From positions 544,001 through 608,000 of the forward strand of contig CAXXIN010000007.1 in NCBI GenBank assembly GCA_963665275.2: a stretch of DNA of 64,000 nt, in the 5' to 3' direction. The position numbers and the translations under genes were made by a program. This DNA is from Negativicutes bacterium. GTDB lineage: Bacteria; Bacillota; Negativicutes; UBA1444. Below the pieces are notes generated by a model. The model saw only the letters and a list, made by a program, of their open reading frames with translations. It ran no database searches and was not told the DNA's origin. Positions 14,028 through 58,774 of the stretch are shown one piece after another (within the stretch, counting starts at the first letter, position 1; every line of letters begins with the position of its first letter).

Positions 14028-14152
14028 TGCGCATTCGTTCGACCTCCGAGGGTGCAAAAAATCGCCTGAACCTAAGTCCCGGCGAACACAAATCCAACCT
14101 ATTCAAAATACCCCAAAGCTACGAACCCTTATTATTAGCGCTTATTTCCGTT
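14028..14152 (-). repeat. att arm copy C (rlmD-like tail plus conserved hairpin region)
   Basis: Aligns with 16491-16640 and 58627-58774: TAA GCGCTAATAATAAGGGTTCG...TTCGCCGGGACTTAGGTTCAGGCGATTTTTT...ACCCTCGGAGGTC. Confidence 0.9.
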
Positions 14153-14340
14153 ACTGAGTAGAACAGTGGGGTTGCCACCGCCCCCTCATCAAACCGTACG
14201 GGCAGTATACTGCACACGGCTTTCCAATATTCTTCTTCCCTCAGCATTCAGCTAACACGCATCCAGGCAAGACCACTGAAATAAATGAGTTTACGAATTC
14301 CACTCATATGGCCCAATCTATACAGGCGTTGTCGATTGGA
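14153..14340 (-). ncRNA. Group II intron 3' remnant (end of the intron ORF, domains V and VI)
   Basis: Minus strand reads GGAAAGCCGTGTGCAGTATACTGCCCGTACGGTTTGATGAGGGGGCGGTGGCAACCCCACTGTTCTACTCAGT, a domain V/VI pattern. It is preceded by a short ORF tail, NRQRLYRLGHMSGIRKLIYFSGLAWMRVS*. Confidence 0.8.
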
Positions 14341-14341
14341 A

Positions 14342-15550
14342 TCAAATCAGTTCATGTAACGCATCTGCAATTTCTTCAAATGAAACAACAGTGAACAATT
14401 CCCATATAATCCTGTCGTTTCTCTTGTTAAATAGTTCCGCGCTCAAGCTGTCGATTCCGGCAAAGTTAAGCTTTAAAACTTCACGAACGTCTTTAATCTT
14501 TTTCCCACGTTCAGGTCCATATATTGCGCCAAAATTCAGCCTGTCGATCAGATCCTGCATTTCTCGAAATCGCTTAATTTTGTTGTCACCCTGAAAAATA
14601 TAATTGGCCAAAAGTTCCAAATGGCATCCAGCAATTGCCCACTGAGCCTTATCGCGTCTAACACTATTCCGAAGATATAACGATTGAAAGTCGTTCGCCC
14701 TTTGCAGCAGCTCGTCGTCGTTTTCAATATTTTGAACCTGGCGAATCAACAGTTTCATGTCTGCGAAGAGCAAGTCGGGATCATATGAAATATCATGTAT
14801 TGTGCACTCAAATTCAGCTGCCTTTTTATAGTTTGCCAGTACGAACTCCTTATTATCAATAATTCGATCCATATTGAAACTAAACAAAGTAATCACGTCA
14901 TAAATCTGCTTAAACTGTTCATCTGCTCTCTCGGCAGGAACTCCTATCGTATTAGGCCCGAGTGTAGTTAATTTGTCAGCGAACAGCATTTCCAATGTCA
15001 ATAAATTAAATTCTTTTTCAGTCTCTAGCGCGAACAAACTGTTTGGCTTAACTTTTTGCCATTGATATTCCTGCGCTGAAAATAAAAATTCAATTTTTAC
15101 TTCCTGTTTTCCGTTTTGGGCATATAGGTCTGCCCTATTACAAATAGTTGGAACTGTAACAAAATATGTTTCCAGCTCACCCAGTCCAAGTTTGGGATGT
15201 TTGGGCTTGTAGAGTCTGAATTTGCAATACTCTCCGTCGCCCTGAAGATCCGCTTCCACTTCTGCAAGGGCAGCATGCACATCTTCACGGGTTGCCAAGC
15301 TAATCATGTCAATATCTATGCTGGTTCTTTGGGTTGCAGCGGGAATGTAGAACTGCGTTGCCGCACCGCCTTTCAGCATGATTTTCTCTCCAAGCTTTTT
15401 TTGCAGCTGCAAGAACATCTCCAAATCCCAGATAAAAAGTTCAAACTTAGCTTTTGAATTGAATCCGCCATCTGTCATACGCTTTTCTATCTCGCTTTTT
15501 TCAAAAACCGTCGGTCCTAAGATGAGATTTTCTTGTTTTATCCCCTCCAT
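14342..15550 (-). CDS. AbiEii-like nucleotidyltransferase toxin (type IV TA / abortive infection)
   Basis: MLKGGAATQFY...RTSIDIDM (GG...DxD nucleotidyltransferase motif), ADKLTTL, YDV. Overlaps the upstream antitoxin gene. Confidence 0.8.
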   Translation of the reverse strand: MEGIKQENLILGPTVFEKSEIEKRMTDGGFNSKAKFELFIWDLEMFLQLQKKLGEKIMLKGGAATQFYIPAATQRTSIDIDMISLATREDVHAALAEVEADLQGDGEYCKFRLYKPKHPKLGLGELETYFVTVPTICNRADLYAQNGKQEVKIEFLFSAQEYQWQKVKPNSLFALETEKEFNLLTLEMLFADKLTTLGPNTIGVPAERADEQFKQIYDVITLFSFNMDRIIDNKEFVLANYKKAAEFECTIHDISYDPDLLFADMKLLIRQVQNIENDDELLQRANDFQSLYLRNSVRRDKAQWAIAGCHLELLANYIFQGDNKIKRFREMQDLIDRLNFGAIYGPERGKKIKDVREVLKLNFAGIDSLSAELFNKRNDRIIWELFTVVSFEEIADALHELI

Positions 15551-16326
15551 GGCTCCTCCTTCAATTGATACCTCATGAATTCCAATGTTTTTTCTGGCAA
15601 CCTATTCAATTCTATAAGCCAATTGATTTCCCTGACGATTCCTCTATCTTTTGCAGAAATCTTCATTTTTTCCATTGCAACAGTTTTGTTTCTGCGCAAA
15701 CTTTGATAGATTCGTGACAGTTCAGGAATAGCAATACCATAGCCCATCCTAGTTACTGAGTAATATAGATCGACAAATCCCTTTTCTTTCCGGGCTATAT
15801 GCTCCTTTGACAGCGAAAAGTCCTTCCCTGTAAATAGCACAACGTCAACTTGATCAATATTTATTGTTTTGCCTATGATGTTTCTTTCTTTTTCGGTTAG
15901 CGCCATTAGTAGCTTTTCCTTCAGTATTCCTTGTATTTCGTTTATCCCGCTTTCCTCAGCTACTATCAAGGTTGGATACTTTTCTGGCACATGCAAAATT
16001 TCACCAACCAAAGCATCCAAGCCAGAGATATAAAAATTGTATCCGTAGTCTATAAGAGTATCGTAAATTACCTGTGACTGCTTTTGCATGTAATTATATC
16101 CCATCGCATTATGTTCCTTGACCCCAGTCAGGGCATAGTACCCATGCCCCGTTTTATAAAGTTTCCCGCGCTGAACCAATTCATATAGTCGCCAAGAAAT
16201 AGTTTTTTTGTTGATATCCGGATACAGTGAATATATTGTTCTAACATCTATTTCGTTGCCACTTTCCATGTGTCTTGAAAGTTCATTATAAAATTTCTCT
16301 TCAATTGACACGTTATTCGAATCCAC
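15538..16326 (-). CDS. AbiEi-like antitoxin / transcriptional regulator
   Basis: N-terminal winged helix (TISWRLYELVQRGKLYKTGHGYY), YISG and EKGFVDLY motifs. Directly upstream of the toxin gene. Confidence 0.7.
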   Translation of the reverse strand: MDSNNVSIEEKFYNELSRHMESGNEIDVRTIYSLYPDINKKTISWRLYELVQRGKLYKTGHGYYALTGVKEHNAMGYNYMQKQSQVIYDTLIDYGYNFYISGLDALVGEILHVPEKYPTLIVAEESGINEIQGILKEKLLMALTEKERNIIGKTINIDQVDVVLFTGKDFSLSKEHIARKEKGFVDLYYSVTRMGYGIAIPELSRIYQSLRRNKTVAMEKMKISAKDRGIVREINWLIELNRLPEKTLEFMRYQLKEEPWRG

Positions 16327-16490: not shown

Positions 16491-16652
16491 CGCGCAAACG
16501 TTCGACCCCCGGGGGTGCAAAAAATCGCCTGAACCTAAGTCCAGGCGAACATATATCACACCCATCCAATTATCCCCAATCTCGCGAACCCTTATTATTC
16601 GCGCCTATTGCTTCTCTATCAACGCGACGCACTCGACGTGCCATTTGATAGA
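16491..16652 (-). repeat. att arm copy B / distal junction of element A (displaced rlmD-like 3' end)
   Basis: Encodes HVECVALIEKQ*, against HVECIALIEKQ* in rlmD. Inverted repeat TCTATCAA (16615-16622)/TTGATAGA (16645-16652) is centred on GA at 16633-16634. Conserved hairpin tail follows. Confidence 0.92.
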
Positions 16653-16726
16653 AAGGTGATACTAATACGCGTAATTGGAGATTCGCGAGAAGGTTTACCC
16701 CCTTTGAAGAAGGGGGGGCGATGATA

Positions 16727-18736
16727 CTACTCCGCCCTAACATCAACCTTTGTGTCATAAAAAGTACTGCCGGCAGCTTTGTCAGTTAATCGTTGAGAGG
16801 TAAGGGCGTTCACACCTCGCTTTCCAGGGGCGTTCTTAATCCACCAAACCCCTTCGGCAACGGCAACCCCCGACGGCACTTTTTCTGTTGTTTTAAGGAT
16901 GAAGGTGACCTCACCGCGGCAATTAAACGCCACTACCCGTTGCCCATCTGTCAGATTCTTAGCGGCAGCATCAACAAGGTTCATCTGCAAAGTCATGAAA
17001 GTCTGAGCCTTGTCCCCGACAAGATCGTACCGTTCATTAAAAGAAGAGTTAAGCATAATTGTGGTCGGGGCAGTCATCAGCCAATAGGGCGCTTCATCAC
17101 CATTAGGCGCAAAGTAACTTGGTATCGAATCGACTTCTGAGGGATTACGAACTTCAATTTTGCCGGAGGGTGTTCTGAAATCCATTTTATAGCCCGCTGG
17201 CAGTGGCAATTCAATTGGCTTGCCGGATTTTAGTTTTTCCATATCAACGCTAGCCAACCAGGGATTGGGGTTATCCAGCAGATGATCGATTAATTCGTCG
17301 GCAGTCTGCTGAAAATATGTTTCTTCAAATCCCATAGCTTTAGCTAATAAACCGAATACATCCCAGTTGGATTTGGCTTCGCCAACAGATGGTATGGCCG
17401 GATAGGCCCGTTGCATGCAATAGTGCCCGTAGGCTATGAAAAGATCACTGGTTTCCACTGAAGAAGCTGCCGGCAGGACAACGTCGGCGAAGTTTGCCGT
17501 ATCAGTCATAAATCGTTCATGCACCACGGTAAACAGGTCGTCGCGCTTAAGTCCCTCAAATACTGCGTTTTGGTCAGGTGTAACGGCGGCCGGGTTGGAT
17601 TGGTAAACGTAAAGACCCATTACGGGGTTAACCGGCGTTGTCAACGCCCCGCCCAATTGATTCATGTTAATAATCCGTGTCGGCTTTTCCATAAAGTCTT
17701 CGCGAGTTATGGCAGCCATATTAAGCGCGCTGGCGGTAGATATGTTTCCCATTAAGCCGCCCCCCGGTTTTGCCCAGGCGCCGATCAGCGCCGGCAAGCA
17801 GCTGATGATGCGCACCGTGGTTGCACCGTTTCCATATCGCGACAACCCTGAACCCAACCTGATGAAGGGCGCTCTCGCTTTTGCATATTCTCTGGCAAGC
17901 GCTTCGATGGTACTGACCGTTAGGCCTGTGATCTCACTTACAACGCATGGCGAGTACTGGGGTAGAATGTTGTCTCTAAGTTCCTCATAACCTTGAACAT
18001 ACTTGTCAACAAACGCGTCGTCCGCCAGGTCATCTCTGGCGATGATATGCATAATTCCAAGAGCTAATGCACCGTCACTGCCCGGTTTGGTTAAAAAGAC
18101 CCGGTCAGCGATTTGCGCCGTTGGGGTTTCATAGGTATCCACCAACCATACAGTAGCGCCTCGCTTCCTGGCCTCTCTTATCCCGTGCAAAAAGTGTATA
18201 TTTGTGGCAACGGCATTAATCCCCCAAAGGATAATCAGATCACTTTCCATAACTTCGTCTGGATGCGGCGCGAGGGTATTTCCCATTACCGATTTCCATC
18301 CATATCCCTTGGCAGGGGAACAGATCGTCCTGTCAAGTCGGGTGGCGCCTAAACGGTTTAAAAAAGCCTGACCAACATTACGCTGCACTAAACCCATTGT
18401 TCCCGCATACGAGTAAGGCAAAATGGCTTCCGAACCATGAGCTGCGATAATTCCCTGCCACCGACTGGCAATATGATCGATCGCCTCGTCCCAGCTGACT
18501 GAACGGAATTGCCCACTGCCTTTACTGCCTGAACGCAATAACGGCTTAGTTATTCGCAAAGGTGAGTGCACCGTTCTTTCGTAGTGCACCATTTTAGGGC
18601 AGAGGGTCCCGCGGGTGAAGGAGTGCTCCGGGTCACCCAGCACCTGCACTACCTGATCATTTTCCGTATAGATCAATAACCCGCAAGTATCGGGGCAATC
18701 ATATGGGCATACTGAGCGTTTAATTTCGGTTGCCAT
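16727..18736 (-). CDS. Molybdopterin-dependent oxidoreductase
   Basis: N-terminal CPYDCPDTC...GTLCPK Fe-S motif, FTVVHERFMTDTANFADVVLPA, C-terminal NALTSQRLTD. Confidence 0.88.
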   Translation of the reverse strand: MATEIKRSVCPYDCPDTCGLLIYTENDQVVQVLGDPEHSFTRGTLCPKMVHYERTVHSPLRITKPLLRSGSKGSGQFRSVSWDEAIDHIASRWQGIIAAHGSEAILPYSYAGTMGLVQRNVGQAFLNRLGATRLDRTICSPAKGYGWKSVMGNTLAPHPDEVMESDLIILWGINAVATNIHFLHGIREARKRGATVWLVDTYETPTAQIADRVFLTKPGSDGALALGIMHIIARDDLADDAFVDKYVQGYEELRDNILPQYSPCVVSEITGLTVSTIEALAREYAKARAPFIRLGSGLSRYGNGATTVRIISCLPALIGAWAKPGGGLMGNISTASALNMAAITREDFMEKPTRIINMNQLGGALTTPVNPVMGLYVYQSNPAAVTPDQNAVFEGLKRDDLFTVVHERFMTDTANFADVVLPAASSVETSDLFIAYGHYCMQRAYPAIPSVGEAKSNWDVFGLLAKAMGFEETYFQQTADELIDHLLDNPNPWLASVDMEKLKSGKPIELPLPAGYKMDFRTPSGKIEVRNPSEVDSIPSYFAPNGDEAPYWLMTAPTTIMLNSSFNERYDLVGDKAQTFMTLQMNLVDAAAKNLTDGQRVVAFNCRGEVTFILKTTEKVPSGVAVAEGVWWIKNAPGKRGVNALTSQRLTDKAAGSTFYDTKVDVRAE

Positions 18737-18799
18737 GAACATCTCCTCCAATAACATTGCGTCAGATATATACATGAACCAGTTACGTCTGTGTGACTA

Positions 18800-19135
18800 T
18801 TACTGCCTATACCTTTTTTAAAGCTATCCCGGAAAGAGTCAAATAGATGAAGCGCAGCTAATGTGGGGTGTTGAAACATCATCCGAGGTCCTGAAAACCG
18901 CATGACATCCTTAATTTTATTCCGCATTATTCACAGAATAACAGTGAACCGGACAATGCAAGCACACTGGTTTGTGCTCGCCAAATTTACAACTATCCAG
19001 CCTTTTACAAGCATAATCCAGCAGGGCCTGGCAATCCTCACATTTCACTTTATCCGTTCGATGTTTGGCTTTGCAATATATCAATATCATTTTTTCAACA
19101 CAGATTTTTTCTCTGGTTATTCTTTTCCCCAGCAT
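18800..19135 (-). pseudogene. YgbA-like (nitrous-oxide-stimulated promoter family) protein, frameshifted; 3' end approximate
   Basis: REKICVEKMILIYC...CEDC...RLDSCKFGEHKPVCLHCPVHCY continues in another frame as MRNKIKDVMRFSGPRMM. One extra base near 18930. Confidence 0.7.
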
Positions 19136-19253
19136 GCCTGCCCTCCCAAACGACGCTCTTGGATAGATATCATTGAATTTCAAGCAGGCTTGTTTAGGGG
19201 ATTACTAATATCTAAATTCGAATTCGACTCACCAGCCGGCCCTTTATGTCACC

Positions 19254-19589
19254 TTACTTAAACATACCAAGTTTCTCAACCTTACTTACTCTTGTGGCAA
19301 AACTGCTATACCAAATATCTTGTCCCATCTTTTGGGCATCTTTATGTTTGGTATTATTCTTCCAATTTTCGATGGCTTGCAATGATTCCCAGTAAGATAT
19401 TCTTATCCCCACACCACTGGTATCTCTGACACTTTCCGCACCTAAAAATCCAGGTTGGCTATAGCCAAGTGCTTCCATTTCGTCGGCTGCCTGTTTAAAT
19501 CCGCCATCCCCATCAGTACGAACAGACGTGAATATAACCGCATAATAGGGTGGGGGTGGGGTTTTAGCTATTGCGCTCATCTCTGTCAC
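19254..19589 (-). CDS. Antibiotic-biosynthesis monooxygenase (ABM) domain protein
   Basis: TPPPPYYAVIFTS...QPGFLGAES...SYWESLQAIENWK...H..AQ. Confidence 0.8.
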   Translation of the reverse strand: MTEMSAIAKTPPPPYYAVIFTSVRTDGDGGFKQAADEMEALGYSQPGFLGAESVRDTSGVGIRISYWESLQAIENWKNNTKHKDAQKMGQDIWYSSFATRVSKVEKLGMFK

Positions 19590-19709
19590 TCCTCGTATAC
19601 TTGAATTCGTCTACTGCAACTATTTTTTTTGTCAAAATCGAAACTGGCCAACAGGCTCGTTTCAAAGGTTGCACGGGTCCACGGAAACCCCGATAGCAAT
19701 ATCCGCTAT

Positions 19710-20948
19710 TTATTTGGAGTTGATCGCTGCAACATCATCTGGTTGAAAAAGTTGCCCTGGCAAGAAGAATGCACAGCAGAAGGCGAGTATCGGTATCACA
19801 GCGATCACTGTAAAAACACTAGCTATGCCAAAATGGTCAGCAACATGGCCTAAGAGAACCACCGCGATGCCCCCCAACCCTATACTAAATCCGAGTGTAA
19901 GACTAGCCGCTAAAGCTTCGTACCCAGGCATCATCTCCTGGGCCAATACTATTGTGGACGAGAAAGACGCAATATAGGTAAAACCGATAGCCACCAGCAA
20001 TGGAAAAGTCCAAAAAACGGAGGCAGATCTGAACAACGCAAGCAGAGGCAAGGTGAGAGCCATAGAGGCCAGGATCACTGTTTTGCGGCCAAACCTGTCA
20101 CCAAGGGCTCCTCCTGTATAAGTCCCGACTACGCCACTCAGCATATACCCTGTTATCAGATAGCCGGCATAAACCGGGTTTCCGCCGAGATAGTCCACAA
20201 AATATAAAGGGATGTAGTTCACTAACCCCGCTGCAATACTTGACCGAAGAAAAATATAAATCATTAAAATAATCACCTTGGTATAGAGGATGGGAGCGTT
20301 AACCCTGATTTCCTTTTCGGCAACACGGCTCGCTAATGGCCGGGGAGACATCTGATGCAGGTTTCTCCAGAGTAACGCAGCAAGCACAATTGCCGGAAGG
20401 CAGAAATATAGAGTATTGCTAATAGATCCCGGTAGTGCCAACAAAGCCATCATGAAAACAGATCCGCAGGCTTGGCCTAAATTACCACCCAATGAATAGA
20501 TTGCCATGCTGCGACCCCGACTGTACAGGTTGCTTACTGCATAGACGCTCTTGGCGGCTTGGGGATGGAACGTGGCAACTCCTAGACCTGTGATGGTCAC
20601 GATTGCAAGTAACGCAGGGTAAGAAGGAGCTAAACCAGTGACTGCCGTGCCAACTCCGGCCAGTAGAAGCCCGGCAGGCACCAACCAGCTTAATGCCAAG
20701 CGATCGCTGAAGTAGCCGAAAATGGGTTGAATTACCGATGATGTTAAATTTTGAATTAACACAATAAAGCCGACTTGAGTATAGGTCAGGGCAAAGGCGC
20801 TTTTGAAAAAGGGTAAAAGTATTGGTAGCGCCCCTACACTTAAATCAGCAACTGCATGACTTAAGGAAATTAGCAGCAAGGATTTGTTCAGGTAAGATGG
20901 TTTCTTGTCGGACATATTGTATCTCCCATATGTGTTCATTAACAACAT
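19710..20948 (-). CDS. MFS transporter (Fsr-like)
   Basis: About 12 hydrophobic segments, QPIFGYFSDR, FHPQA, GDRFGRK. Confidence 0.85.
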   Translation of the reverse strand: MLLMNTYGRYNMSDKKPSYLNKSLLLISLSHAVADLSVGALPILLPFFKSAFALTYTQVGFIVLIQNLTSSVIQPIFGYFSDRLALSWLVPAGLLLAGVGTAVTGLAPSYPALLAIVTITGLGVATFHPQAAKSVYAVSNLYSRGRSMAIYSLGGNLGQACGSVFMMALLALPGSISNTLYFCLPAIVLAALLWRNLHQMSPRPLASRVAEKEIRVNAPILYTKVIILMIYIFLRSSIAAGLVNYIPLYFVDYLGGNPVYAGYLITGYMLSGVVGTYTGGALGDRFGRKTVILASMALTLPLLALFRSASVFWTFPLLVAIGFTYIASFSSTIVLAQEMMPGYEALAASLTLGFSIGLGGIAVVLLGHVADHFGIASVFTVIAVIPILAFCCAFFLPGQLFQPDDVAAINSK

Positions 20949-20984
20949 TTCTTATTTCGTTCTGTGTAGAAGCGAAGAAAGCAG

Positions 20985-21386
20985 CTATTTGTCCGTTGTA
21001 CGGGATGCCTCTTTAGCTTTTTTCGCTTGTTTATAAGACGACCAGAACATCTGCATACTCATCACCGCAAAGAAAACGCTGAAAATCTGACGCAGCAGAG
21101 TCTCGGAGATGCTGTTGGCAACATAGGCACCAACTACGCCCCCAAGCATCAGGCCTACAGCAAGAAAAGGGATAACCCGGTAGTTGATCATCTTGTTGCG
21201 GTGATGCCTGGCCACGCCGACCAAAGCGGTCGGAATCATGGCAGCCAGTGCGGCAGCCTGAGCGGCATGCTGGCCGATTCCCATGAATACCACTGCAGAG
21301 GCAACCAATACCGCTCCACCGCCGATTCCGAGCAGTCCGCTGAGCACACCCGTGACCATCCCTGTAAGAATGGCGATAATGATCAC
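20985..21386 (-). CDS. TauE/SafE-family membrane protein, half-size (second half)
   Basis: GVLSGLLGIGGGAVLV...QHAAQA. GTG start overlaps the TGA of the upstream half (GTGA). Confidence 0.7.
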   Translation of the reverse strand: MIIIAILTGMVTGVLSGLLGIGGGAVLVASAVVFMGIGQHAAQAAALAAMIPTALVGVARHHRNKMINYRVIPFLAVGLMLGGVVGAYVANSISETLLRQIFSVFFAVMSMQMFWSSYKQAKKAKEASRTTDK

Positions 21387-21757
21387 AAGCTCACCCCCAT
21401 CCTGATAGCGATGGAAAGCGCGAGGACCGCAAAAATCATTTTTAGGATATGGGGCTTCACGTAGGGCATGAGGGACGCCCCGATGAAAGCACCAAATATA
21501 CCGCCGACGGCGAACAGCCCGGCAAGCCCAAAGTCGAGCTGGCCGAACTCTTTGTATACAAAAGCGCTGACAACAGCTCCCGGTATAATAACGGCCAGGC
21601 TCGTTGCGTGCGCCATATGCTGGCTCACGCCCAGGAAGCTGACCATGAGAGGAACGAGAATGATGGCTCCGCCGATTCCCAGTAGTCCGCCGACGACTCC
21701 CCCGGCAAAGCCGATGAGGAGGGCTTTCAAATTCTCCACTCGCTGCATCCCTTTCAT
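21383..21757 (-). CDS. TauE/SafE-family membrane protein, half-size (first half)
   Basis: GVVGGLLGIGGAIILVP...QHMAHATSL. Confidence 0.75.
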   Translation of the reverse strand: MKGMQRVENLKALLIGFAGGVVGGLLGIGGAIILVPLMVSFLGVSQHMAHATSLAVIIPGAVVSAFVYKEFGQLDFGLAGLFAVGGIFGAFIGASLMPYVKPHILKMIFAVLALSIAIRMGVSL

Positions 21758-21943
21758 AAAATACAGAGATCAACCGTGCTTTGAATCAACGGAGCCGACC
21801 TATTTGGGATCGACACCGCTTTGCTTGCTTTACTATGCGAGAAATTCATTTCCTTGTTCACCGCCTTCTTCACCCATTGCCCCGCCCATCGGACGACTAA
21901 ATCGGCGAGATCGTGTTGGTCACGGACAAGCTGCAATTTTTTA

Positions 21944-22510
21944 TTATTGAAGATACTTTTGTTTAAATTCTCCCAGCATCGCGTGAAATTTTTCATGCGT
22001 TCCCATCCCAATGCGTTCTATTTCAATTTTTTCGAAGACTTCCGCCATTTCTTTCTGGTCCTCGGCAGAGATCTTCACATCAGCTATTGTATAGAGGTCG
22101 CGATCCTCCTTGGCAATGTGTTCGGTTAAAAGCCGAGCATAGCTTTTTGCTACCCCACTTAAATCTGACGCTGCGCTCTTGTTTCCCGCCTGGCGCCTTT
22201 TTAGCACTTCAGTCATTTCAACAACCAGTTTCCTGCCCAAAGCATGTTCTGCCAACAAATCCCTCACCAACTCAGATGTGGTCGGCACGCCCTCTTCTAC
22301 CAGTGCAGGGAACAAAACGTCCTCTTCTTTAGCGTGATGGCACTTGTCGACAAAGACTTTGAAGAACTCGATTAGTCTCTCAAGGTCAGCCGCGTATATA
22401 GCACCCTGAGTTCCCGGGGGTTCCACCAGCTTCGCACATAACTGTTCGAGGATCCGAAGTGACATTTTTACTCCATGATGTTCTTCTTTAAGCAGATCCG
22501 TGGCTTGCAT
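21944..22510 (-). CDS. Hemerythrin (HHE) domain protein
   Basis: LKEEH...CHHAKEEDVLFP...EH...HIAKED. Confidence 0.85.
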   Translation of the reverse strand: MQATDLLKEEHHGVKMSLRILEQLCAKLVEPPGTQGAIYAADLERLIEFFKVFVDKCHHAKEEDVLFPALVEEGVPTTSELVRDLLAEHALGRKLVVEMTEVLKRRQAGNKSAASDLSGVAKSYARLLTEHIAKEDRDLYTIADVKISAEDQKEMAEVFEKIEIERIGMGTHEKFHAMLGEFKQKYLQ

Positions 22511-22552
22511 CCTACACACCTCCATTATATTTTTTTTACGTTGTTCCCGTCC

Positions 22553-23734: not shown

Positions 23735-23804
23735 TAATGAACCCTCCCCTGCATGATTTTTTCGGGTTGTGCGTTTTTCGAGCTAAAATATCGGTAGTTG
23801 TTCG

Positions 23805-24260: not shown

Positions 24261-24329
24261 CTTTATTCCCCCTCATAAAAGTTCCGTCTCCTTACCGGCT
24301 TACAATTCAACAACTTCATAGAATTAAGT

Positions 24330-24692: not shown

Positions 24693-24823
24693 TGTCTTAC
24701 CTCCAGTCCTCGATAACCCACTTCGCCAAGGCGGTGTGACAAATTGGGCATCTTATTTACATAACATGCCCAATTTACAAGGCTATTGAACGCCAGGGCA
24801 GTTATGCCAAAGTTTTTGATAAA

Positions 24824-43238: not shown

Positions 43239-43242
43239 TTTG

Positions 43243-46862: not shown

Positions 46863-46881
46863 TGATATATCCCTCAATATT

Positions 46882-48061: not shown

Positions 48062-48361
48062 CGTTCGACCTACTCCTTTCCTCGTTCTCTTGCAAAAGCT
48101 GCTTCTAATTCCACTATACGCCTTAAACACGGCATCTTCCGCACTCTGGCAGAAGATGATATCGAAACAATCAAGGCGAAAGACACGATTGCCAGCTGCA
48201 TATCGGCCACGAATCTCTATAATCCTAATCCTTATTCAGCGGGCTTCTTACCTTCAACATGATGCTCCCTTTGCGTGCCACACGGGCTAACATCAATACC
48301 CCCCGAGGGTTATTCGGCCGCTCTCTTGTTGCTGTCATAATTTGCGTAACTCAGGGCAACT

Positions 48362-49204: not shown

Positions 49205-52200
49205 CTACCTCTCACACACCAGATTTCTGTATGTCATAAACGCATTAGGAAGCCAATCCGACAAATCATAAGGATTCAAGTATATCTTTGTCCTTGTGTT
49301 ATCGAGTTTCTTCCGTATCGCAGGTACAACTTTAAAGTCGACTGAAGGATTAGGTTGAGGCGTGCCGATGTCCTCTGATATCAGCTTCCTCAGTGGCACG
49401 AGATACTTTTCTTGTTCGCTGTCATCGTATTCGTCTGGCAACTGCCCATATTGAGAATAGTCGAGAAGCTGCAGCCCTAAATGTCTGTCGAAAAATTGGT
49501 GGTTTCTCTGATTCCAGTAGTTGTCCAGACAATTCTTACAGGAATGCGAGCATTCACATTCTGAAAGAATGCTCCTTGCCCTATCGAGAACCTTATCAAG
49601 AATTGAGCCTATCAGCGATGAGTATCCCGCGCCGCTTGTGAGGTTGTCATAGAAGAACATTTCAATGTGCGATTTTCCGTCGCTCTTGATTCTCGGACGC
49701 CAACCGCCGCTGATTTCATTATAGTCAATGTCCAAGACAAGCGAAATAGATTTCTTGAGTGCTTCGTGCAAGGTTGTCACGGCCGCCCTAAGTATGCTTT
49801 TTTCTTCTGCATTGCTATTACCAATGAGTTTGGATGAGTCGTAAAAAATGTCCAACATAAACATATCCGTCAAAAATTCATACCCCAAATAGATACCAGT
49901 AGTGACAGTCCCCTCGTGGCGGCATAGTGGACGGCTATCGTGGTATGGTTGCGAGAAAGAAAATGCTCCTGAATTTGTGCCTGCAACCTCTGCACCGCCG
50001 CATTTCCTGCAAACATTGAAACCGTTCTTGCTTTTCCCCATGTTCACGGTCAAGACTTTTCGGTCAGGAAGATTGGCGAAGCGGATATTGCTCCGCCCGA
50101 ATTCTTCCATCCGTATGTCTTCTGGAACATAGGAATAATACGGAGCCTCCGCATAGGTGTATTGCTCATCTTCATCCTCGAACTTTACCTCATCGCCTTT
50201 GACGGGTGAAAAGCCCCAAGGCCGCAGCATTTTATTCTTTACAATGGGCACGCCACAATACGGACAAACTAATTGGTGTGAATCCTCTTGCTCCAAGCCA
50301 AACCAGTTGCACTCAGAACAAACGTAGATATCTTTATAATAGTCCGTGTTTTTGAAGTAGAATTCGGCCTGATTCGTTTCAAAACCTCTCGGACGAGGGT
50401 TGGCATAGAGTCCACCGCTCTTGAATTTTTTCTTGTCAATCGTTACAAAGCGTCCAGGGGCATATTCACTGAGGGCGACGGCGATATCCCGCTCCGGCGC
50501 ATATTGAATATCTCGCGGTGCGTTCCGTCCGCGTTCAGATTCCTTCTCAATGAAAAACCTAACAACATTTTTGGGGAACGAGTACGACGGAATAAAGCCT
50601 TCACGGTAAAAGACATCAAATGCAGGAGTTTCTTTGTCGTTGTTAATGTATTCATCGCGTTTGCCTTCAGCTAAAACTCTTTGGCATATTTTGCGGAAAC
50701 GAACAATGGTCACATCAGTAGATAATTTTGATGATTTCGCAAATGTTTCCGCAAATTCAATGAAATTTTCACTGTACAGTTCGCAGAACGATATTATACC
50801 TATGTCAACGATGCCGTCAAATTGGCCGCTCATGTCCGGTGTTGACATAAACCCATTCAACGCCAGCATATTGACATGACGTTGCTTTATTTTCGGATTA
50901 TCCCGGTCAATCCACGGCTTGCGCGGCGAACCGGAAATCATCTCGTCTGGATGCAAGAAGTAATGACTGTCGTGTGTTCCTCCCGAAGCGTATGTTACGA
51001 TCGTAGAGATTCCTGCATTCTTACGTCCAGCACGTCCTGCTCTTTGCTGGTAGTTTTCTCTCATAGGCGGTATGTTGCGAAGGCCGACAGCGGTTAAAGA
51101 GCCTATATCTATACCTACTTCCATAGTTGTCGTGCAACTTAAAACATCAATTGACTCCTCACCTTTTTCGCCTGCATTGATGTCTTGGAAGCGCATTTCA
51201 TACTTTTCTGTACGGCTCCAAGTATCACTGCGGATTTCTTTATGGGAAAGTTGCGCAGTATGTTCTTCAGTGTTTATTGTGTGAATGCTATCGATTTTAC
51301 TTAAGGCATTGAGAACCGGAAGGCGCCAAAAATCAAAGCGAGATAAGTCGGATTCGCCGATTGCCACTAAGTCCGTCGATTCAAAACAAGCACCGCAATA
51401 TTCGCCAATCTTGAATGGAGACAATTTCCCGCACCTAACACAACGAAACCATATGATGTCTTTGTCAGCAAACTTAATTTTTACCGCACGCAGCTTGATG
51501 TGGAAGCGACCAACTGAAGAGGAAGCGAAAAACAGGTCACGCACCTTATCGATGGTTTTTACTAAAGCGGTATTGTCAAGACAAAGGCGCTCTTGAATTC
51601 GTTGGAGGAATGTCTTATCCAGTGCGGCTGCGAAGTCAAAACTCAATCCGAATTCATGTGCTTTACTGCGTCCAGGCAGGCCCTTTCTAACATCATCTGG
51701 AATTGTTTCTCCCAAAGCTGCGCTGTCGTCCATTACATCCCAGAATAGTAACACAAGCAGCTGATAAAGGGTACTATTATCAACGCCGATTCCGGCGTCC
51801 TCTAATAAATCATCCACACAATCATCAAGTTCTTTTTGCATAGGGGCTAAAAAACCGATACCTATATCCTTGAAAGAGCGTGGACTTTCTGTGAAGAAAG
51901 TAAGCAACTGCTCATAGTAATCTTCAGGCAGCGACTGATATTCAAAGGCAATCGCCGAATAGTTAATAGATTTTCCTCGCCGTTCCGCTCTATTTTTTTC
52001 AATGCTGAATTTTCGTTGGTCATCTCTGAACTTATTTTTGCTTGTCCCGCTAAAGAAAGATAGGTTGTTTTGGATACAGACATCCAAGAACGCGGGGTAA
52101 AGATCAAACAGAGAGTGTTCATTTCTGTCGACTTGTAGTAGCAGAGATGCAAGCATAACCGCCTGGCGGAATGCGTCTGCATCAGATGATTTTGACAAAT

Positions 52201-54436
52201 CCAAGGCTAATTTCGCGGCGTTTTGGCGCGAGTCGGAGAACAACAGAACCTTCTTCCCTTGATTAATTAGTTCTGACTTCGGAAGTTTTGGCGGCTGAAG
52301 TTCAAACTGCGCTTTTGTAAGATTGTAGAATGGCACATTGCCTTTTGTTGATAAATCCACAGGCTTCTTCAAAGGCATTGATTTTTTACACTTGGGACAA
52401 ACGCCAAAGTTGAACGACTGCGACTTCGAGTCAAATTGATTGCTATAGACAACGGCGAGCAAGCTTTCATCGTCGTGGGGAGACGCATAGAGTTTTCCCG
52501 TCAAAGGGTCAAGTGCACCGATTTTATCATTCTTTTTTTTCTGATAGTTTTTAGGAATTACATAGAGCAACATCTCTTCAAGAGAATTTGCATCGCCATT
52601 TAAGCCTCGTTGCGGGAATACATACCAATAGGGCTGTCCTTCGATTTTCTGCAAGAAGACGCGTAGATACAGTCCACCGCACTTAATGTGGTTAACTAGC
52701 TCATATATCCTTCCACCACATGAGCAGTTATCTCGCGGCATTGAGATAATTTTACCAAGAGGGAGTTTCTCGCTTACAGAATATTTTGCGCAGGTGCATT
52801 GGGGGTTAGAACATGCATATAGCCCTTGAATCCCTCGCAAGAACATATGAAGACGCACGGGGAAAAGAACATTTCCATCTTTCGCGGCAAGTGCCACCAA
52901 CGCTAATAGAGCGTCGAGCGCTTTTTCGGCATTAGAAGCATCGCCAAATATTATGTTCTTTATCTCATTGTATGACTTTGCGCCATCACGACACAATCGA
53001 TTCAATTTGACGAAAGCTTCGTATTGGGGGAGGTTGTCGTTAAGCCATTCTTGTGCTTGAGATGGGCTGATATCTTCCGGCAAATCATAACGGAAAACAG
53101 CTGTAGCGAAAGCCTTAATTCTGTTGGAAACTTCTTCACCTTGAACTTGATCGGAGCCAAGTGAGGCTAACGCATCAATATTTATCTTAACCGCATACTC
53201 TTCAGATATATGGTCTTTTGAGCCGACCAAAAACTCACAAAAGGATGCGTTCTTTCCTGTGAGCCCTGTGTAGAAGTCATTTATCGCAGTTTGCTCGCCT
53301 TGGGGCATACTTGCAGTAGTAAGGATAAACTGAACTCTATCCTTTGAAATCCCCAAACGGTAAAACAGACGTTCCAACAAGAGCGCGATTTCTCCACCGG
53401 CAGAGCCGCGATACATATGCGCTTCATCCAAAACTATGAGGAGCTTGTTATCCGCCGATTCATCAAGCCATTCTTTTGTCTTATCCCAGATGTTGGCTTC
53501 ACGCTGGCGCATGAGCATATACTCCAACATTGAGTAGTTCGTAATCAAGATGTCCGGCGGACACCCCTGCATCTCAAAGCGAGTAATGTACTCAGCGTCG
53601 TAAGGCGATGGGTTGTGAATGTTCTTCTCAAGATTTTCAACGAAAACTTGAAGTCCGTTTTTTCCATATCGGGCAGGGTATTTATTGATGCGCTTTAACC
53701 CACCTATGTTGTTGGTTTGCCTCCTTTGCACATCTTTATCGGCAGTTTCGTCAATTAAATAGTTTTCTCGAAAAGTCGCAGCCAATTCGCGGCTACTTGC
53801 AAGTTTTGCATCCCCGGAGTAAGGGGTTCTGCCTGTATACATCCCGAAATGAGGTATCCTTGTTGCCTGAGTATCTCTCATGAAAATGTCTTTGAACTGT
53901 TCACTACCGATAATTTTTCTAAATCTGGCCAATTGGTCGGAAACCAGAGCATTCATTGGATAAATGATGAGCGTTCGCACCGCTTCCTTTTTGAACGCTC
54001 TTGAACGATTTTTCGCTTCTCCGAAGCATTTAGCAATAATTGGCCAAAGGAAACATTCGGTTTTACCTGAACCGGTGCCGGTTGAAACGAAAAGGTCTCT
54101 GCCTGACAGGAAGAATTCCAGTGCCTTAACCTGATGTTCAAACGGGTCAGGGAATATTCCGAGATTCTCTTTAACAAGTTTTAGCAGAGAATCTTTTACT
54201 CCCTGTTCAATCTGCTGGGAGTTCCTGATCCCATCAACTATTTTCTTGTATGAAGCCGAAGTTTCAATGTATGGTTCGCGCGCAATGTTCGTATGCTCTG
54301 AGCATAGTTCCCCCAGAAGGTCATCGACATACAGCAACAGCGTTTCGCTGTTGGCCAAATAGTCGGACTTTATGTAATTCTCCAGCCTGTCCCTAATAGA
54401 CTTATAATATTGCTGAACCCCGTTTGAGCTATTCAT
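49205..54436 (-). CDS. Large DEAH helicase with a DUF1998 C-terminus (DruE-like)
   Basis: [64 protein letters not shown]...CEC..SC..CL. Confidence 0.92.
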
Positions 54437-55445
54437 CCACGCAGCCTCCCTTTACCTCGATGCCGATGTTGGTAAGCGCAGCAATTGCTTCCCGCAATAA
54501 GTCATTCCGTATCAAAAAGTTGACCTTGTCAAAAGCATTGTTCTCAGGCCAAGACAAAAGCAACAGGTAGTAGTATTCACGGTTGGGCAAGTGTCCCCCT
54601 ATTCTTATTTTTGAATACTCCTCGTCTTGCTTTGCAATGGTGGCTTTAAGGGGCTTTCCGTAATGCGCTTTTAAGGCAAAATACAGCCGCCTATACTCAT
54701 ACGAGGTAAAGCTGTCGTTCTGCGGTTCAACAGTTTCTTCAGCAAATTGCAGGGCATCGTCCACCAACATAACCCTATAAAATGGACCAATTTCACTTTT
54801 CCGAGCTACGGTGCAGTCTGTTTCCATCTTTTTCCCCCAAGACTGCGACGGAACATTGTTTGATTGGGGATTAAAGAACTCAAGCTCGGAAAGGCTGATG
54901 TCTCTGTCATAGAAATCTATAGAGTCAAACCGTGATTGAAAATACATTTCACGAGTTAAGTCGTCTCTAATCATAAACTCTTTCACAAAAACTCTGTATG
55001 CTGTGGGGCTTAAAAAAGCGCCTAGTCCGTTAACATTATAAGCTGAATTGGGCACTCCAAAGAACAACGCTGTATTCCCAAGCGGCAAGCTTCGCCCGTA
55101 GTTGGCTATTCGGTTGCGGTTACTGTTATCAGTCAGAAGATAACCAGTTTCCTCGTAGACCCTCCTGATGTGAACAGGGAAGTTCACCAGTTGATTTCCG
55201 GTGTCAATGAATCTTTCTGAGATAGGAGGAAACAATTCCACAAACCGCGCCATCAAGTCATTCAGCACGATTGTCTGGTTATGCTTTGTTGTTCCGATAA
55301 CGCCGCCCGATAAATTTTGCGCCGTGCAAAGGCACCACTGTCCAAGAGCTGAGTAGCAGAGCCTATAAACAAAGGAGTCTTCGGATTCGCCGCGAAAACT
55401 GCTGATGCCCATATCTGATGACATTGTGGTTAACAAATTATTCAT
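54429..55445 (-). CDS. Hypothetical protein (DruD-like by position and size)
   Basis: ~338 aa, with an ATGA overlap upstream and an overlap with the helicase start. Confidence 0.7.
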
Positions 55446-57031
55446 CCCGCAAACCACCGCCTGAACAGATTCTTGTATTGACATCTTCCGGCATCTCCGG
55501 AATACTTAATCAACCGCTCGGACGTGTTATAAGGTGCAATCCGCATTACATCCACGCAGTAAGGTAAAATGTCGAATGCCAGTACACGGCATAAATCCAT
55601 TTCGGAGGATACATAAATGCACTTATGCTCGACCAAACTTCGACGAAAACCAAACTCGCTAAGCATATCTCTGAGCGATTGAGAATACCGTGTGCCCGGC
55701 AACACACATTGAAGGTTAGCCTCTTTTTCCTCGACCGTTGATGGATCTTCCGTTAAATCGGCATTGCCCAATAACGCTTCAATGCGATTAAGATTAAGAT
55801 AATGGCAATACCGCAAAAATTCTTCAGAAATATAGTATAAAGTTCTATCATAGGCGACCGTTAAGAAAATAATTTTATCCCTATGACGCTCAAATAGCGG
55901 TAATAGTTCAGTTTCATTAAAACTTCCGATGAAGTTATCCAAGCAAACAACGCGCCCGTCAATCGATAAGAATTTTTCTACATCTTGCGCCGAAAGGTCT
56001 TTGCAAAATGCAAGTGTCCTCACATTTGAAGTCGATACTAGCGCATTCGCGATGCACTTCATTAAGATCATGCCCACGCCCCGATTTATAACTACAGGTA
56101 CCCCTTGAAACAGGGTACAGCACAGATGCTCTTTCAATATGGCAAAGTATTCTGAGTTGCTTGGTACACCTAAGTTCTCTAAGTTGTATCCCAAATAATC
56201 CTTAAACTCATCCATATTATTGGGGCATTTTGGCTTTACAGCAGCTTCTTGTTGGGCTGCTTTGATATTTTGCTGTTTTTTCAATTCAGCTCTGATTTGG
56301 GCTTCAATTTGTTTTTTGCTGTCTATTATTTCTGTCAATTCTTTCCTAAGTTGCTGTATAATTTCTTCTCGATCATGTATTTTGGATTTGAAAGCCGCAA
56401 TTGATTCTTCGTTGCTTTGTATGGCGGCGCTCATTTTTTCAAGGCTTGCATTAGTACGTTTAAGGTCCTTAATCTCAGATGAACACTCATTAAGCTTTGT
56501 ACCAGTTCTAAACAATTCTAATTGAACATTTTCAAATTGTCCTTGCAACTTCTTTATTTCAGAAGCTTTGTCTTTTATCTCATTATCGAACTTCTCCCGC
56601 TTGCCATCGGAATCTTTAATAGCCTTTACTGCCACACTCAATAATGCAATGAATTCTTCCGAGTACTCTTCATTGACAAGTTTGAGAAACAAACCGATAT
56701 TGTCCGCAAAGAAACAGTTCGGCAATGTATGCAAAAGCGCAGCTTCTTTGCTATCGCCATCATCTATTCTTTGGGTTATGCATCCTTGAATCTCCTCCAT
56801 CCACCTACTAATATGTTTTTCAATGAAGGACGTGATAAAGGGCTGGTTGCGAAACCTATAGAGCAATGTATTTACTTGCGCCTGATTTTTCATGCTTGTT
56901 GCGCGGAATCCGGGCATAACTTTTGCGAAGTCTTTCGGGTAATGCTTGAAATAGCAAACCGATTCTTGAAGCGGGATTACTGAGCATATATAACGCACTT
57001 CGTCTTCGGTAAGTTGAGGAAGATACTTCAT
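55442..57031 (-). CDS. Coiled-coil protein with a possible degenerate NTPase C-terminus (DruC-like by position)
   Basis: 529 aa, long heptad-rich region, then VVCLDNFIG. ATGA overlaps on both sides. Confidence 0.7.
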   Translation of the reverse strand: MKYLPQLTEDEVRYICSVIPLQESVCYFKHYPKDFAKVMPGFRATSMKNQAQVNTLLYRFRNQPFITSFIEKHISRWMEEIQGCITQRIDDGDSKEAALLHTLPNCFFADNIGLFLKLVNEEYSEEFIALLSVAVKAIKDSDGKREKFDNEIKDKASEIKKLQGQFENVQLELFRTGTKLNECSSEIKDLKRTNASLEKMSAAIQSNEESIAAFKSKIHDREEIIQQLRKELTEIIDSKKQIEAQIRAELKKQQNIKAAQQEAAVKPKCPNNMDEFKDYLGYNLENLGVPSNSEYFAILKEHLCCTLFQGVPVVINRGVGMILMKCIANALVSTSNVRTLAFCKDLSAQDVEKFLSIDGRVVCLDNFIGSFNETELLPLFERHRDKIIFLTVAYDRTLYYISEEFLRYCHYLNLNRIEALLGNADLTEDPSTVEEKEANLQCVLPGTRYSQSLRDMLSEFGFRRSLVEHKCIYVSSEMDLCRVLAFDILPYCVDVMRIAPYNTSERLIKYSGDAGRCQYKNLFRRWFAG

Positions 57032-58467
57032 ATCCGCCCCTCCATGATAAATTGTTTTGCGGCCGAGTTTATCAAACCATACGATTCACATTTTTCTATG
57101 TATTGAAAAGCGATTTCACTGAGATCGCATAAATCAAAAACATCTGCTGTGAAAGGTTCTGTTCGCCTGTAATGAGAGATCAGGTCGTTGAGCAACTGCT
57201 CACCAATCAATTCATTATGTTGCCGAGGGTAAATACAACCGTCAAGATAGCTAAACATATAGCGCCTTATTACACATCCCGGAAATAGTGAAATGGACTG
57301 TCCTTTGCTCACAGGCGTAACGCCGGAGCGGCTGAACAAGTAGTGTTTGCTGTCATTCGACACATTATATACGCTTTCATATCTTTCCGCTATTTGAAAG
57401 TCGTCAAAGCCGATAGAGTGTTGTTCGCCCTTGGCAATTATAATCTCGACATTATTTTTGCACACTTTTGTTTGTGCCTTAACCGACACTCTTGAAATAC
57501 TACTTGAAACCTTCTCAATATCTTCGGAATGGGCATTTATATTGCCGTGAGCTTGCAGTGCAAAACTCGAATACAAAAAGACGTTATTGGATTCGATTAC
57601 TGCAACGTCTTCGACCTGTACCGCCGGCGGCCATAATAGGGTCAGCGTTTCGGAGGCTTCTAGCTGATAACCCCACGCTGCCACTAATGAATCCATATAG
57701 GCAGTCTTGCTCTTGAATATCAAATTTTTACCTAAAAAATTCCTTCCCATCGTTTGGAATTGAAATGTTTCATCCACTTTAATCTCGTTTGGCAGGCTAC
57801 TATCATAAGGTATCGAATATTGGCTTTGAAATGCAACGAAATATTGCACATTTGTGTACAACACAGTACTGCGAACCAGCTTTGCTTTATAGTTTTCATC
57901 ATTTCCTTGTATCTTAAAAAAAATGGGCGCATTGGTATCGAAAGATCGAAAAACCTCGTACTTCCGTTTAATCCCATTAAAAGTGTTCGATAAGAAATAA
58001 TTATGAGAGAAACGCATAATGTAAATCGGCGTGGGGGCATTTGGTGCAAAATTCTTATGGTTAATCAGCAATGAATCAAAAGGTTGTTCTTGAGCAGAAG
58101 CCCTCAACTCAAACCTAGTTGATAACTGCTCATAAGCAATTATCTCATCATCGCTAAAACTAAGTCCCAGATAAAACATCTTGGAACGCTTGTCAAAATA
58201 AAATTCCGCTCTCTCATTCTTGCTTTTCCTCGAATGTGGTTCTGTGCTTATTGCGCTGTATTGCCCGAGATAATCTTCACATCCTACATCATTGTTGCCG
58301 CTACGATGCCTAAAATGCGGAATCATGCTTATGCTTCCCACAGCAGCAATGCGGACTTCCTCGCCGCAATGAGCGCACTCGTAACGATACCGTTCCAGAC
58401 CACCACTTTGGGCGGCCAACTCCGCAGATACTTCGGATTGAAGAAAAGTATCATACGCCTTTCGCAT
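57028..58467 (-). CDS. Hypothetical protein with a CoiA-like N-terminal zinc motif (DruB-like by position)
   Basis: YECAHCGEEV...PHFRH...C; RBS GGGAG before MRKAYD. Confidence 0.7.
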   Translation of the reverse strand: MRKAYDTFLQSEVSAELAAQSGGLERYRYECAHCGEEVRIAAVGSISMIPHFRHRSGNNDVGCEDYLGQYSAISTEPHSRKSKNERAEFYFDKRSKMFYLGLSFSDDEIIAYEQLSTRFELRASAQEQPFDSLLINHKNFAPNAPTPIYIMRFSHNYFLSNTFNGIKRKYEVFRSFDTNAPIFFKIQGNDENYKAKLVRSTVLYTNVQYFVAFQSQYSIPYDSSLPNEIKVDETFQFQTMGRNFLGKNLIFKSKTAYMDSLVAAWGYQLEASETLTLLWPPAVQVEDVAVIESNNVFLYSSFALQAHGNINAHSEDIEKVSSSISRVSVKAQTKVCKNNVEIIIAKGEQHSIGFDDFQIAERYESVYNVSNDSKHYLFSRSGVTPVSKGQSISLFPGCVIRRYMFSYLDGCIYPRQHNELIGEQLLNDLISHYRRTEPFTADVFDLCDLSEIAFQYIEKCESYGLINSAAKQFIMEGRI

Positions 58468-58626
58468 TCCCGCAACACTCCCATTCAATAAAATGATGGT
58501 TAGAAATTGCCAGCTTTCTCCAGCGTTTTGTAAGTCAAGTGGGGAGAAAATTACTGTACTTACCATTATTTACTCTTCCATACTTTTCCGCGAATCCCTC
58601 CCAAATTCCGCCAATTTATCGATTTT

Positions 58627-58774
58627 CGCGTATTCGTAGACCCCGGGGGTCGGAAAAATCGCCTGAACCTAAGTCCAGGCGAACATAAATCTAACCTATT
58701 CGAAATACCCCAAGGCCGCGAAGCCTTATTATTCGCGCCTACTGCTTCTCTATCAACGCTATGCACTCCACATG
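58627..58774 (-). repeat. att arm copy A (rlmD 3' end plus conserved tail)
   Basis: HVECIALIEKQ* followed by GCGCGAATAATAAGG...TCGCCTGGACTTAGGTTCAGGCGATTTTT...ACCCCCGGGGTC; aligns with copies B and C. Confidence 0.92.
58654..58682 (-). terminator. Rho-independent terminator-like hairpin after rlmD (also present in att copies B and C)
   Basis: TCGCCTGGAC-TTAG-GTTCAGGCGA followed by TTTTT on the minus strand. Confidence 0.65.

What the first reader, a model, noticed from the sequence alone, without database searches (positions are those of the whole stretch)
14028..58774. Tandem att-cassette array at rlmD: three att arms, each followed by a different defence system
Seen: a ~130-150 bp unit (rlmD-like last codons, stop, conserved tail) occurs three times in the same orientation, at 58627-58774, 16491-16652 and 14028-14152. 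Directly downstream sit a Druantia-like operon, an AbiE pair and a type I R-M plus ATPase-HNH locus, respectively. Copy B has 8-bp inverted arms centred on GA. Known: large serine recombinases use a 2-bp crossover core, rumA/rlmD 3' ends are integration hotspots in Firmicutes, and SCC elements stack at rlmH. Inference: each incoming element restores the rlmD end and leaves a reusable site, building an SCC- or integron-like defence array that the recombinases at 38-40.6 kb could excise or reshuffle.
Basis: partly seen in the sequence, partly recalled or inferred. Interest (0 to 1): 0.82.

Follow-up and report, generated by a model that had tools for sequence, protein, structure and literature searches.

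The report
Stacked mobile elements at rlmD hotspot
Behind the rRNA methyltransferase gene rlmD, mobile elements have landed one after another at the same recombination site, leaving one intact 42-kb element and the stranded anti-phage genes of older ones; this is a known kind of hotspot, here with unusually short recombinases and an intron that inserts into the site itself.

Summary
The three co-oriented copies and the defence genes behind them are real, but the copies are not equivalent. C (58.8 kb) is rlmD joined to an element arm. B (16.6 kb) is a hybrid of two element arms. A (14.1 kb) has lost its core to a group II intron remnant and lacks rlmD-like codons. Junctions place the crossover at CA (His codon), not GA. 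Only C and B bound an excisable unit: a 42-kb element with primase/helicase, two large serine recombinases, Druantia and 20 kb of metabolic cargo. A metagenome contig has the AbiE unit directly at rlmD, the state without that element. Relatives show tandem prophages and dense arrays of 1-6 kb modules at this site; defence hits followed 5 of 22 hybrid sites. This is tandem accretion at the rumA/rlmD hotspot, analogous to SCC tandem defence cassettes; reshuffling is not shown. Not found in my searches: both recombinases lack most of the directionality coiled coil; one intron lineage hits the same att position in three genomes; the recombinase gene is itself a target. The scan noted a similar array earlier in a Clostridia genome.

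The parts
58739..60139 (-). rlmD (rumA), last gene of ligA-gatCAB-rlmD; its last 11 codons lie on the element's arm
   Evidence: TIGR00479 498 bits, cut-off 184; Pfam
58627..58774 (-). Site C: attL-type junction; host arm, core CA (58774-58773), element right arm with stop codon and hairpin (58682-58659)
49205..58566 (-). Druantia type I-like operon: DruB, coiled-coil gene, DruD, DruE; no DruA
   Evidence: PADLOC
47048..49201 (-). Dam-type methylase and RhuM (PDC-S05)
40770..46892 (.). Element core: MerR-like HTH, primase N-part, D5 helicase, HTH protein, Phd/ParE pair, uracil-DNA glycosylase
   Evidence: Pfam, PHROGs
39338..40660 (-). Large serine recombinase 1 (440 aa), catalytic motif intact, no helical hairpin after the zinc domain
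38068..39486 (-). Large serine recombinase 2 (472 aa), 55% identical to phi-m46.1/rum phage recombinases; ~68-residue gap where longer relatives have a coiled coil
36464..37930 (-). Y-family polymerase with an upstream LexA-box-like palindrome (37930-37919; box consensus recalled)
16727..36277 (.). Non-defence cargo of the 42-kb element (GGDEF, ABC/HlyD, Hcp, hemerythrins, flavodiiron, MFS, molybdopterin oxidoreductase)
   Evidence: Pfam; about 9 kb of it at ~80% identity in G010
16492..16706 (-). Site B: hybrid junction; P arm (16706-16641), core CA (16640-16639), right arm with hairpin (16548-16525); the only P arm found on this contig
14342..16326 (-). AbiEi-AbiEii pair; sits directly behind rlmD in metagenome contig L175
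14153..14340 (-). Group II intron 3' remnant (domains V-VI at 14224-14153) abutting arm A
   Evidence: Rfam; same remnant in L175
14029..14152 (-). Site A: right-arm tail only, no core, no rlmD-like codons
3969..13874 (-). Type I R-M (R, M, S), PtuA-like ATPase, PtuB-like protein, HNH
693..3970 (-). Decayed second copy of the RhuM/primase module (91-97% identical to 45-48 kb), cut by an IS256-family element (1621-2959)
1..650 (-). Fic gene (runs off the window) whose G010 counterpart lies directly behind a hybrid att site; its arm is missing here

Best explanation
The locus is a stack made by repeated integration at one site, followed by decay. Elements carrying a pair of large serine recombinases (prophages in some relatives, a primase/helicase satellite-like island here) recombine at the CA of the His codon near the rlmD 3' end. 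The element's right arm supplies the last codons, a stop and a terminator, so the junction stays a usable target. The newest element (C to B, 42.1 kb) went in at the junction of a resident AbiE unit and pushed it outward, so B is a hybrid of the new element's P arm and the older element's right arm. Older elements lost their cores by deletion, IS and intron insertion, stranding the genes just inside their arms (AbiE; R-M plus Septu-like genes; Fic). Shown: the anatomy, the hybrid nature of B, the arrangement without the 42-kb element in a relative, tandem elements in relatives. Inferred: order of events, catalysis by these two proteins, and that loss of the coiled coil relaxes site pairing so that attL-type and hybrid sites can be reused. 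C x B recombination should excise the 42-kb circle; AbiE and R-M cannot leave by site-specific recombination as the sequence stands.
For: C and B share sequence from CA onward and differ to its left. Contig L175 reads rlmD end, CA, right arm, AbiEi, AbiEii, intron remnant, 84% identical over 2445 bases; its 90 bases left of CA match C at 55 and B at 22. G022 has two prophages in tandem at rlmD, each with its own recombinase pair, with an att site between them. G116 has rlmD, an element with the pair (67% and 81% identical, the second interrupted by an intron) and a DUF927/Cch-type helicase, then seven further att or P-arm hits in 40 kb. Recombinase-2 genes are cut exactly at the CA of Gln154 in 7 loci; in L047 the left side is the same P arm and only CA is shared. 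The phi-m46.1 record's two ends also share sequence from CA. The window holds a decayed second core module. Both recombinases are 60-90 residues shorter after the zinc motif than longer homologues; coiled-coil deletion makes LI integrase promiscuous (PMC5499577, section 17).
Against: No excision circle or scar was observed; the only raw-read run laid held 3 reads, none close. The far end of the island has no recognisable att site or native rlmD 3' end. L175 is a single 2.5-kb contig of a relative (RlmD 70% identical over the part present), so direction of change is inferred. Only 1 of the 8 AbiEi relatives found had an att arm. The recombinases were not assayed; recombinase 1 has an unconfident C-terminus (pLDDT under 50 from residue 379).
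Confidence: 0.72

Rival explanations
1. An actively used cassette platform: the recombinase pair of the rlmD-proximal element excises, captures and reorders small att-bounded modules in trans, as CcrAB does for SCC neighbours, so that the array works like an integron.
For: Arrays with sites 0.8-6 kb apart in G039, G034, L121, L126, L131, L136, many with intact cores; 41 of 41 right-arm hits co-oriented in 12 array loci, the window included (loci were oriented by one of their sites). The same module starts behind an arm among different neighbours: L121/L136, 2.8 kb at 95%; a phosphatase module in G039, L124, G047; AbiE first in L175, second here. Short recombinases. Shown for SCC in PMC11470126.
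Against: In this window A has no core and the outer segment has no distal P arm. No reversed order of two modules was found. G039, G034 and G007 hold arrays or sites but no close homologue of recombinase 2 at E<=1e-30, only other serine recombinases elsewhere. Accretion plus deletion gives the same pattern.
Confidence: 0.2
2. The repeats are mainly a terminator-bearing leader copied with accessory operons by homologous or illegitimate recombination; the recombinase pair is incidental.
For: The best-conserved part is a hairpin plus T run found alone at 4 other places in the genome.
Against: A distinct P arm joins the tail at one exact dinucleotide in 25 loci from Negativicutes, Clostridia and Bacillus records (the pattern required that junction); the same P arm is joined at CA inside a recombinase gene; the sites bound prophages.
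Confidence: 0.05

Closest known systems
rumA/rlmD-integrating serine-recombinase prophages, ICEs and tandem elements (phi-m46.1 group; PMC5053989, PMC12785378; nested island at rumA in Dehalobacter, PMC11578063)
   Same: Same target codon, recombinase 55% identical, ends share sequence from CA, tandem elements with three att sites reported in streptococci.
   Different: Different P and right arms; no phage structural or conjugation genes in the 42-kb element; cargo is defence and anaerobic metabolism, not drug resistance; relatives carry many small stripped modules.
SCC/SCCmec with tandem defence cassettes (Hossain et al. 2024, PMC11470126; SCC-like islands in PMC10061031)
   Same: Two large serine recombinases beside a primase/helicase module, insertion in the last codons of an rRNA methyltransferase gene, recombinase-less neighbours rich in defence genes.
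   Different: Target is rlmD, not rlmH; recombinases score 57-159 bits against CcrA/B/C cut-offs of 700-900; excision in trans is shown for SCC, untested here.
ICE/IME-CIME accretion (PMC5704250, PMC7168690)
   Same: Integration into the att site of a decayed resident, giving chimeric internal sites.
   Different: No relaxase among the 56 ORFs scanned; the AbiE unit has lost its distal site, so it is not a complete CIME.
Integrons and group IIC-attC introns (PMC3001079)
   Same: Co-oriented modules separated by related recombination sites, newest next to the platform gene; an intron that inserts into the recombination site.
   Different: Serine not tyrosine recombinase; multi-gene units of 1-42 kb; the intron matches Rfam D1-D4-4 and its class was not determined.

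Membership tests
rumA/rlmD-targeting serine-recombinase elements | Insertion in the last codons of rlmD with the gene restored | tested here: met
rumA/rlmD-targeting serine-recombinase elements | Recombinase of the phi-m46.1/rum clade | tested here: met
   55% identity over 99% to FM864213.1 and phi-Ssu_rum records
rumA/rlmD-targeting serine-recombinase elements | Two cognate junctions flanking the element | tested here: met
   C and B, both with CA core; state without the element in L175
rumA/rlmD-targeting serine-recombinase elements | Excision and circularisation | not testable with these tools
   no reads of this organism laid
SCC (staphylococcal cassette chromosome) | Insertion at rlmH | tested here: not met
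   target is rlmD
SCC (staphylococcal cassette chromosome) | CcrA/CcrB or CcrC | tested here: not met
   far below NCBIfam cut-offs
SCC (staphylococcal cassette chromosome) | Helicase/primase operon upstream of one or two large serine recombinases | tested here: met
   primase N-part and D5 helicase; DUF927/Cch-type helicase in G116
SCC (staphylococcal cassette chromosome) | Tandem att-bounded, recombinase-less cassettes mobilised in trans | tested here: inconclusive
   present in relatives; in the window site A lacks its core; mobilisation not assayed
Integron | IntI tyrosine integrase | tested here: not met
   no tyrosine-recombinase Pfam hit among 56 window ORFs
Integron | Single-gene cassettes with attC sites | tested here: not met
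   units of 2.5 and 42 kb, multi-gene; no Rfam hit at gathering score; no dedicated attC model was run
Integron | Reordering of cassettes | tested here: inconclusive
   shared modules among different neighbours, no reversed order
CIME (AbiE unit) | Both att sites retained, no recombinase | tested here: not met
   distal P arm and core replaced by an intron remnant
Prophage (42-kb element) | Terminase, capsid and tail genes | tested here: not met
   none by Pfam; PHROGs run on 9 window proteins only
Druantia type I | DruA-DruE (five-gene layout recalled) | tested here: inconclusive
   DruB, DruD, DruE1 strong; second gene no DruC hit; no DruA

The most novel reading that the evidence does not exclude
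A serine-recombinase counterpart of the integron in Negativicutes and Clostridia: a two-subunit recombinase that has shed its directionality coiled coil treats all rlmD-type junctions as exchangeable, so small att-bounded modules (defence and metabolic) are excised, captured and re-stacked in trans; the platform has its own parasites, a group II intron that homes into the att arm and elements that insert at a pseudo-att inside the recombinase gene.
Probability: 0.2. Interest if true: 0.8.

Novelty: new variant of a known kind. Interest (0 to 1): 0.5.

Why it matters
It extends the SCC model of defence mobilisation to a second rRNA-methyltransferase hotspot in anaerobic Bacillota and gives exact, testable att sites. 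A natural coiled-coil-short recombinase pair would test directly whether that domain alone sets directionality and how tandem arrays grow. The genes behind these arms are a mappable place to mine for defence systems, although most modules outside this genus are metabolic. An intron that targets serine-recombinase att arms would parallel attC-targeting introns of integrons.

Tried and rejected
GA core: rejected; in L047 the four bases between CA and GA come from the recombinase gene, not the P arm, and two G010 sites with identical left arms already differ before GA. The column counts (CA in 33 of 33, GA in 32 of 33) do not decide this, because most sites were found with patterns that required both. 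Structured ncRNA: no Rfam hit at gathering score in the window. Free attP in viral contigs: 0 and 1 matches, the one match not an evident attP; no att arm in the 25 kb fetched around the best phage hit. First core pattern was mis-spaced and missed the known sites; replaced. Reads: run X21 held 3 distant reads; joints in metagenome contigs that skip the AbiE unit (14000-16491, 14111-16575, 14121-16585) have sides of 27-37 bases and may be cross-mapping between arms, so they were not used. Intron 3' search: 8 of 301 genomes matched; the profiles found no att arm at the intron 3' end in the 8 loci from other genomes. Intron 5' search: 4 of 401 matched; 2 at an att core, this genome's relic without one, G046 a fragment without its 5' end. 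Fold search only confirmed the serine-integrase fold. No complex prediction was run. The CcrAB mechanism paper (PMC3714108) was not held, so subunit-specific half-site binding is recalled only. No supplementary files were read; the target-gene tables of PMC10083194 may list this site.
Full report
Observation. The window is part of contig C7 of a 3.97-Mb genome; relatives were drawn from its class, and titled records with the same att site name Negativicutes, Sporomusaceae, Pelosinus, Clostridium and Bacillus among others. A repeat family of three copies lies at 14044, 16507 and 58641. Identities are 80-82% over ~127 bases and far above shuffled controls (147 and 122 bits against a maximum of 28 in 30 shuffles). 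The genes behind them are Druantia B, D, E without A, an AbiEi/AbiEii pair, and type I R-M with PtuA/PtuB-like genes and an HNH protein.

The copies differ. C is the rlmD end itself. B begins with a 66-base arm that is not rlmD-like, then shares sequence with C from the dinucleotide CA onward. A lacks the first ~25 bases; domains V-VI of a group II intron abut it. DNA profiles of the two arms found 4 long right arms in the genome (3 here, 1 on C14), 4 hairpin-only matches, one weak partial match on C19, and 2 P arms (B and one on C19). So the arm is not scattered genome-wide, but its hairpin, which looks like an intrinsic terminator, is.

What lies between. C to B spans 42,134 bases and reads as one element: Druantia, Dam, RhuM, an HTH gene, primase and D5 helicase, a Phd/ParE pair, two large serine recombinases, a Y-family polymerase and 20 kb of transport, redox and signalling genes. 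These are the only homologues of either recombinase found in the genome. No capsid, terminase or relaxase family was hit among 56 ORFs. Beyond A, the first 4 kb hold a second, broken copy of the RhuM/primase module (91-97% identical) cut by an IS256-family element, then a Fic gene and, just outside the window, a 5' piece of a group II intron (RF02003). Genes shared with most of five congeners resume about 4.5 kb beyond the window start; no att site marks that end.

Relatives. The C arm matched 33 of 61 genomes, this one included, some only by the rlmD end or the hairpin. G029 and G049 have rlmD with no tail. G022 has two prophages in tandem at rlmD, each with a recombinase pair, separated by an att site. 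G116 has rlmD, an element with the pair and a DUF927/Cch-type helicase, then seven further att or P-arm hits within 40 kb, and the modules scanned there are metabolic or regulatory. G039, G034, L121, L126 and L131 show sites 0.1-11 kb apart, most 1-6 kb. Metagenome contig L175, 1 of 8 AbiEi relatives found, has rlmD, CA, right arm, AbiEi, AbiEii and the same intron remnant (84% over 2445 bases): the arrangement expected before insertion, or after excision, of the 42-kb element. In G010 the Fic unit lies directly behind a hybrid site.

Defence content. An exact-pattern scan of species genomes gave 25 loci with a hybrid site. After dropping one duplicate locus and three with no downstream ORF of 100 residues, 22 sites remained; the first one or two ORFs had a PADLOC hit at E<=1e-12 in 5 of 22 (L117, L118, L122, L125, L132), or 7 if two WYL regulators are counted. 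The rest were metabolic, regulatory or unknown. Directly behind rlmD, 5 of 11 genomes had a hit, one being prophage methylases, including 3 of 3 congeners scanned (Mrr, SIR2-Argonaute, a GmrSD-type fragment). No matched random control was run. Defence is common, above all in this genus, but not the rule.

Crossover. Homologues of recombinase 2 are truncated exactly at the CA of Gln154 in 7 loci. In L047 the left side is the P arm also seen at B; intact genes differ from it at the base before CA, and the bases after CA follow the gene, so only CA is shared. The two ends in the phi-m46.1 record also agree from CA. GA is the centre of the inverted 8-mers but not the likely exchange point. The asymmetry of the arms about CA would fit two subunits with different half-site preferences (inference; the CcrA/CcrB precedent is recalled).

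Recombinases. Both keep the catalytic motif. Recombinase 2 is 55% identical to those of phi-m46.1 and rum phages; CcrA/B/C scores are far below cut-off. After the zinc motif they have 112 and 139 residues, against 189-211 in 9 longer homologues among 27 listed. The alignment shows a ~68-residue gap where the long forms are helical; the models show only short helices there in recombinase 2 and none in recombinase 1, whose tail is low-confidence. In LI integrase, deleting the coiled coil makes P x B and L x R reactions similar (PMC5499577, abstract and section 17 read). I infer relaxed site pairing; this is not shown.

Intron. The intron 3' end at A and intron 5' ends in G116 (L136) and G058 (L173) fall at the same place, within a base, just after the TGATA motif of the right arm. 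Three junctions in three genomes suggest an att-targeting intron; the 3' remnant and the 5' pieces were not shown to be one intron, other 3' matches were not at arms, and no full-length copy was examined.

Known systems. Tandem elements with three att sites at rum are described in streptococci (PMC5053989, passages; PMC7168690, passages), accretion into a decayed resident's site in PMC5704250 (passages), rlmD prophages in PMC12785378 (passages), a nested island at rumA in PMC11578063 (passages). SCC recombinases excise neighbouring recombinase-less defence cassettes singly and in combination (PMC11470126, passages); SCC-like composites occur in other Bacillota (PMC10061031, passages). PMC10083194 (passages) reports no enrichment of recombinase targets near defence genes. 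attC-targeting introns: PMC3001079 (abstract). Nine searches of the open library (judged from listings) showed no paper on this arm family, on coiled-coil-short pairs at rlmD, or on introns in such att sites; most subscription papers are outside the library.

Verdict. A real locus, best read as tandem accretion and decay at the known rumA/rlmD hotspot, working like SCC but not a member of it and not an integron. One unit is plausibly mobile; the two outer defence loci are stranded. New variant of a known kind, interest 0.5.

Noticed in passing
L047:3820, L156:2499, L083:2448, L085:~1519, L157:4434, L102:12999, L129:167; corresponds to the Gln154 codon of window 38068-39486: The recombinase-2 gene is itself an insertion target at CA of the QDES motif, with several left-arm types; in G032 and G023 other recombinase genes lie just upstream. 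Recombination of an att site with this pseudo-site could strip an element of its core.
   Followed up: partly
window 14153; L136:150-165; L173:~1630: Group II intron ends at the same position of the att right arm in three genomes; the 5' pieces match RF02003.
   Followed up: partly
L001:19162-19293 (about 700 bases beyond the window start): A 5' intron piece lies 15 kb downstream of the 3' piece at A, in permuted order; unexplained (two copies, or one circle opened inside the intron).
   Followed up: no
L004:9630-9774 (contig C14) and L110:5478-5620 (contig C19): A long right arm without core or P arm on C14, near a TauE homologue of the window's cargo; a P arm facing an inverted partial right arm on C19.
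   Followed up: no
L002:10028-10067, L001:12094-12130, L005:9807-9874, L006:10342-10405: The arm's hairpin alone follows ordinary genes; the two on C7 are on the same strand as the array and may be relics of older arms.
   Followed up: partly
window 36464-37930; L037, L046, L051, L061, L104, L108: The Y-family polymerase is 89-93% identical across genera and lies in or near these arrays.
   Followed up: partly
L044:6446, L048:18463, L085:~1519: A second left-arm type of about 40 bases ends at CA, at rlmD-type sites and inside a recombinase gene; possibly a very small element.
   Followed up: no
L071:7689-8130: G016 carries a duplicated 146-codon rlmD 3' end followed by a Mokosh-like gene; the first copy is followed by HEC-05.
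   Followed up: no
L185:13610-17429: In G116 recombinase 2 is interrupted at residue ~268 by a group II intron with a full-length RT ORF.
   Followed up: no
window 39338-39486: The last 49 codons of recombinase 1 overlap the start of recombinase 2 in another frame; the overlap is kept in homologues.
   Followed up: no
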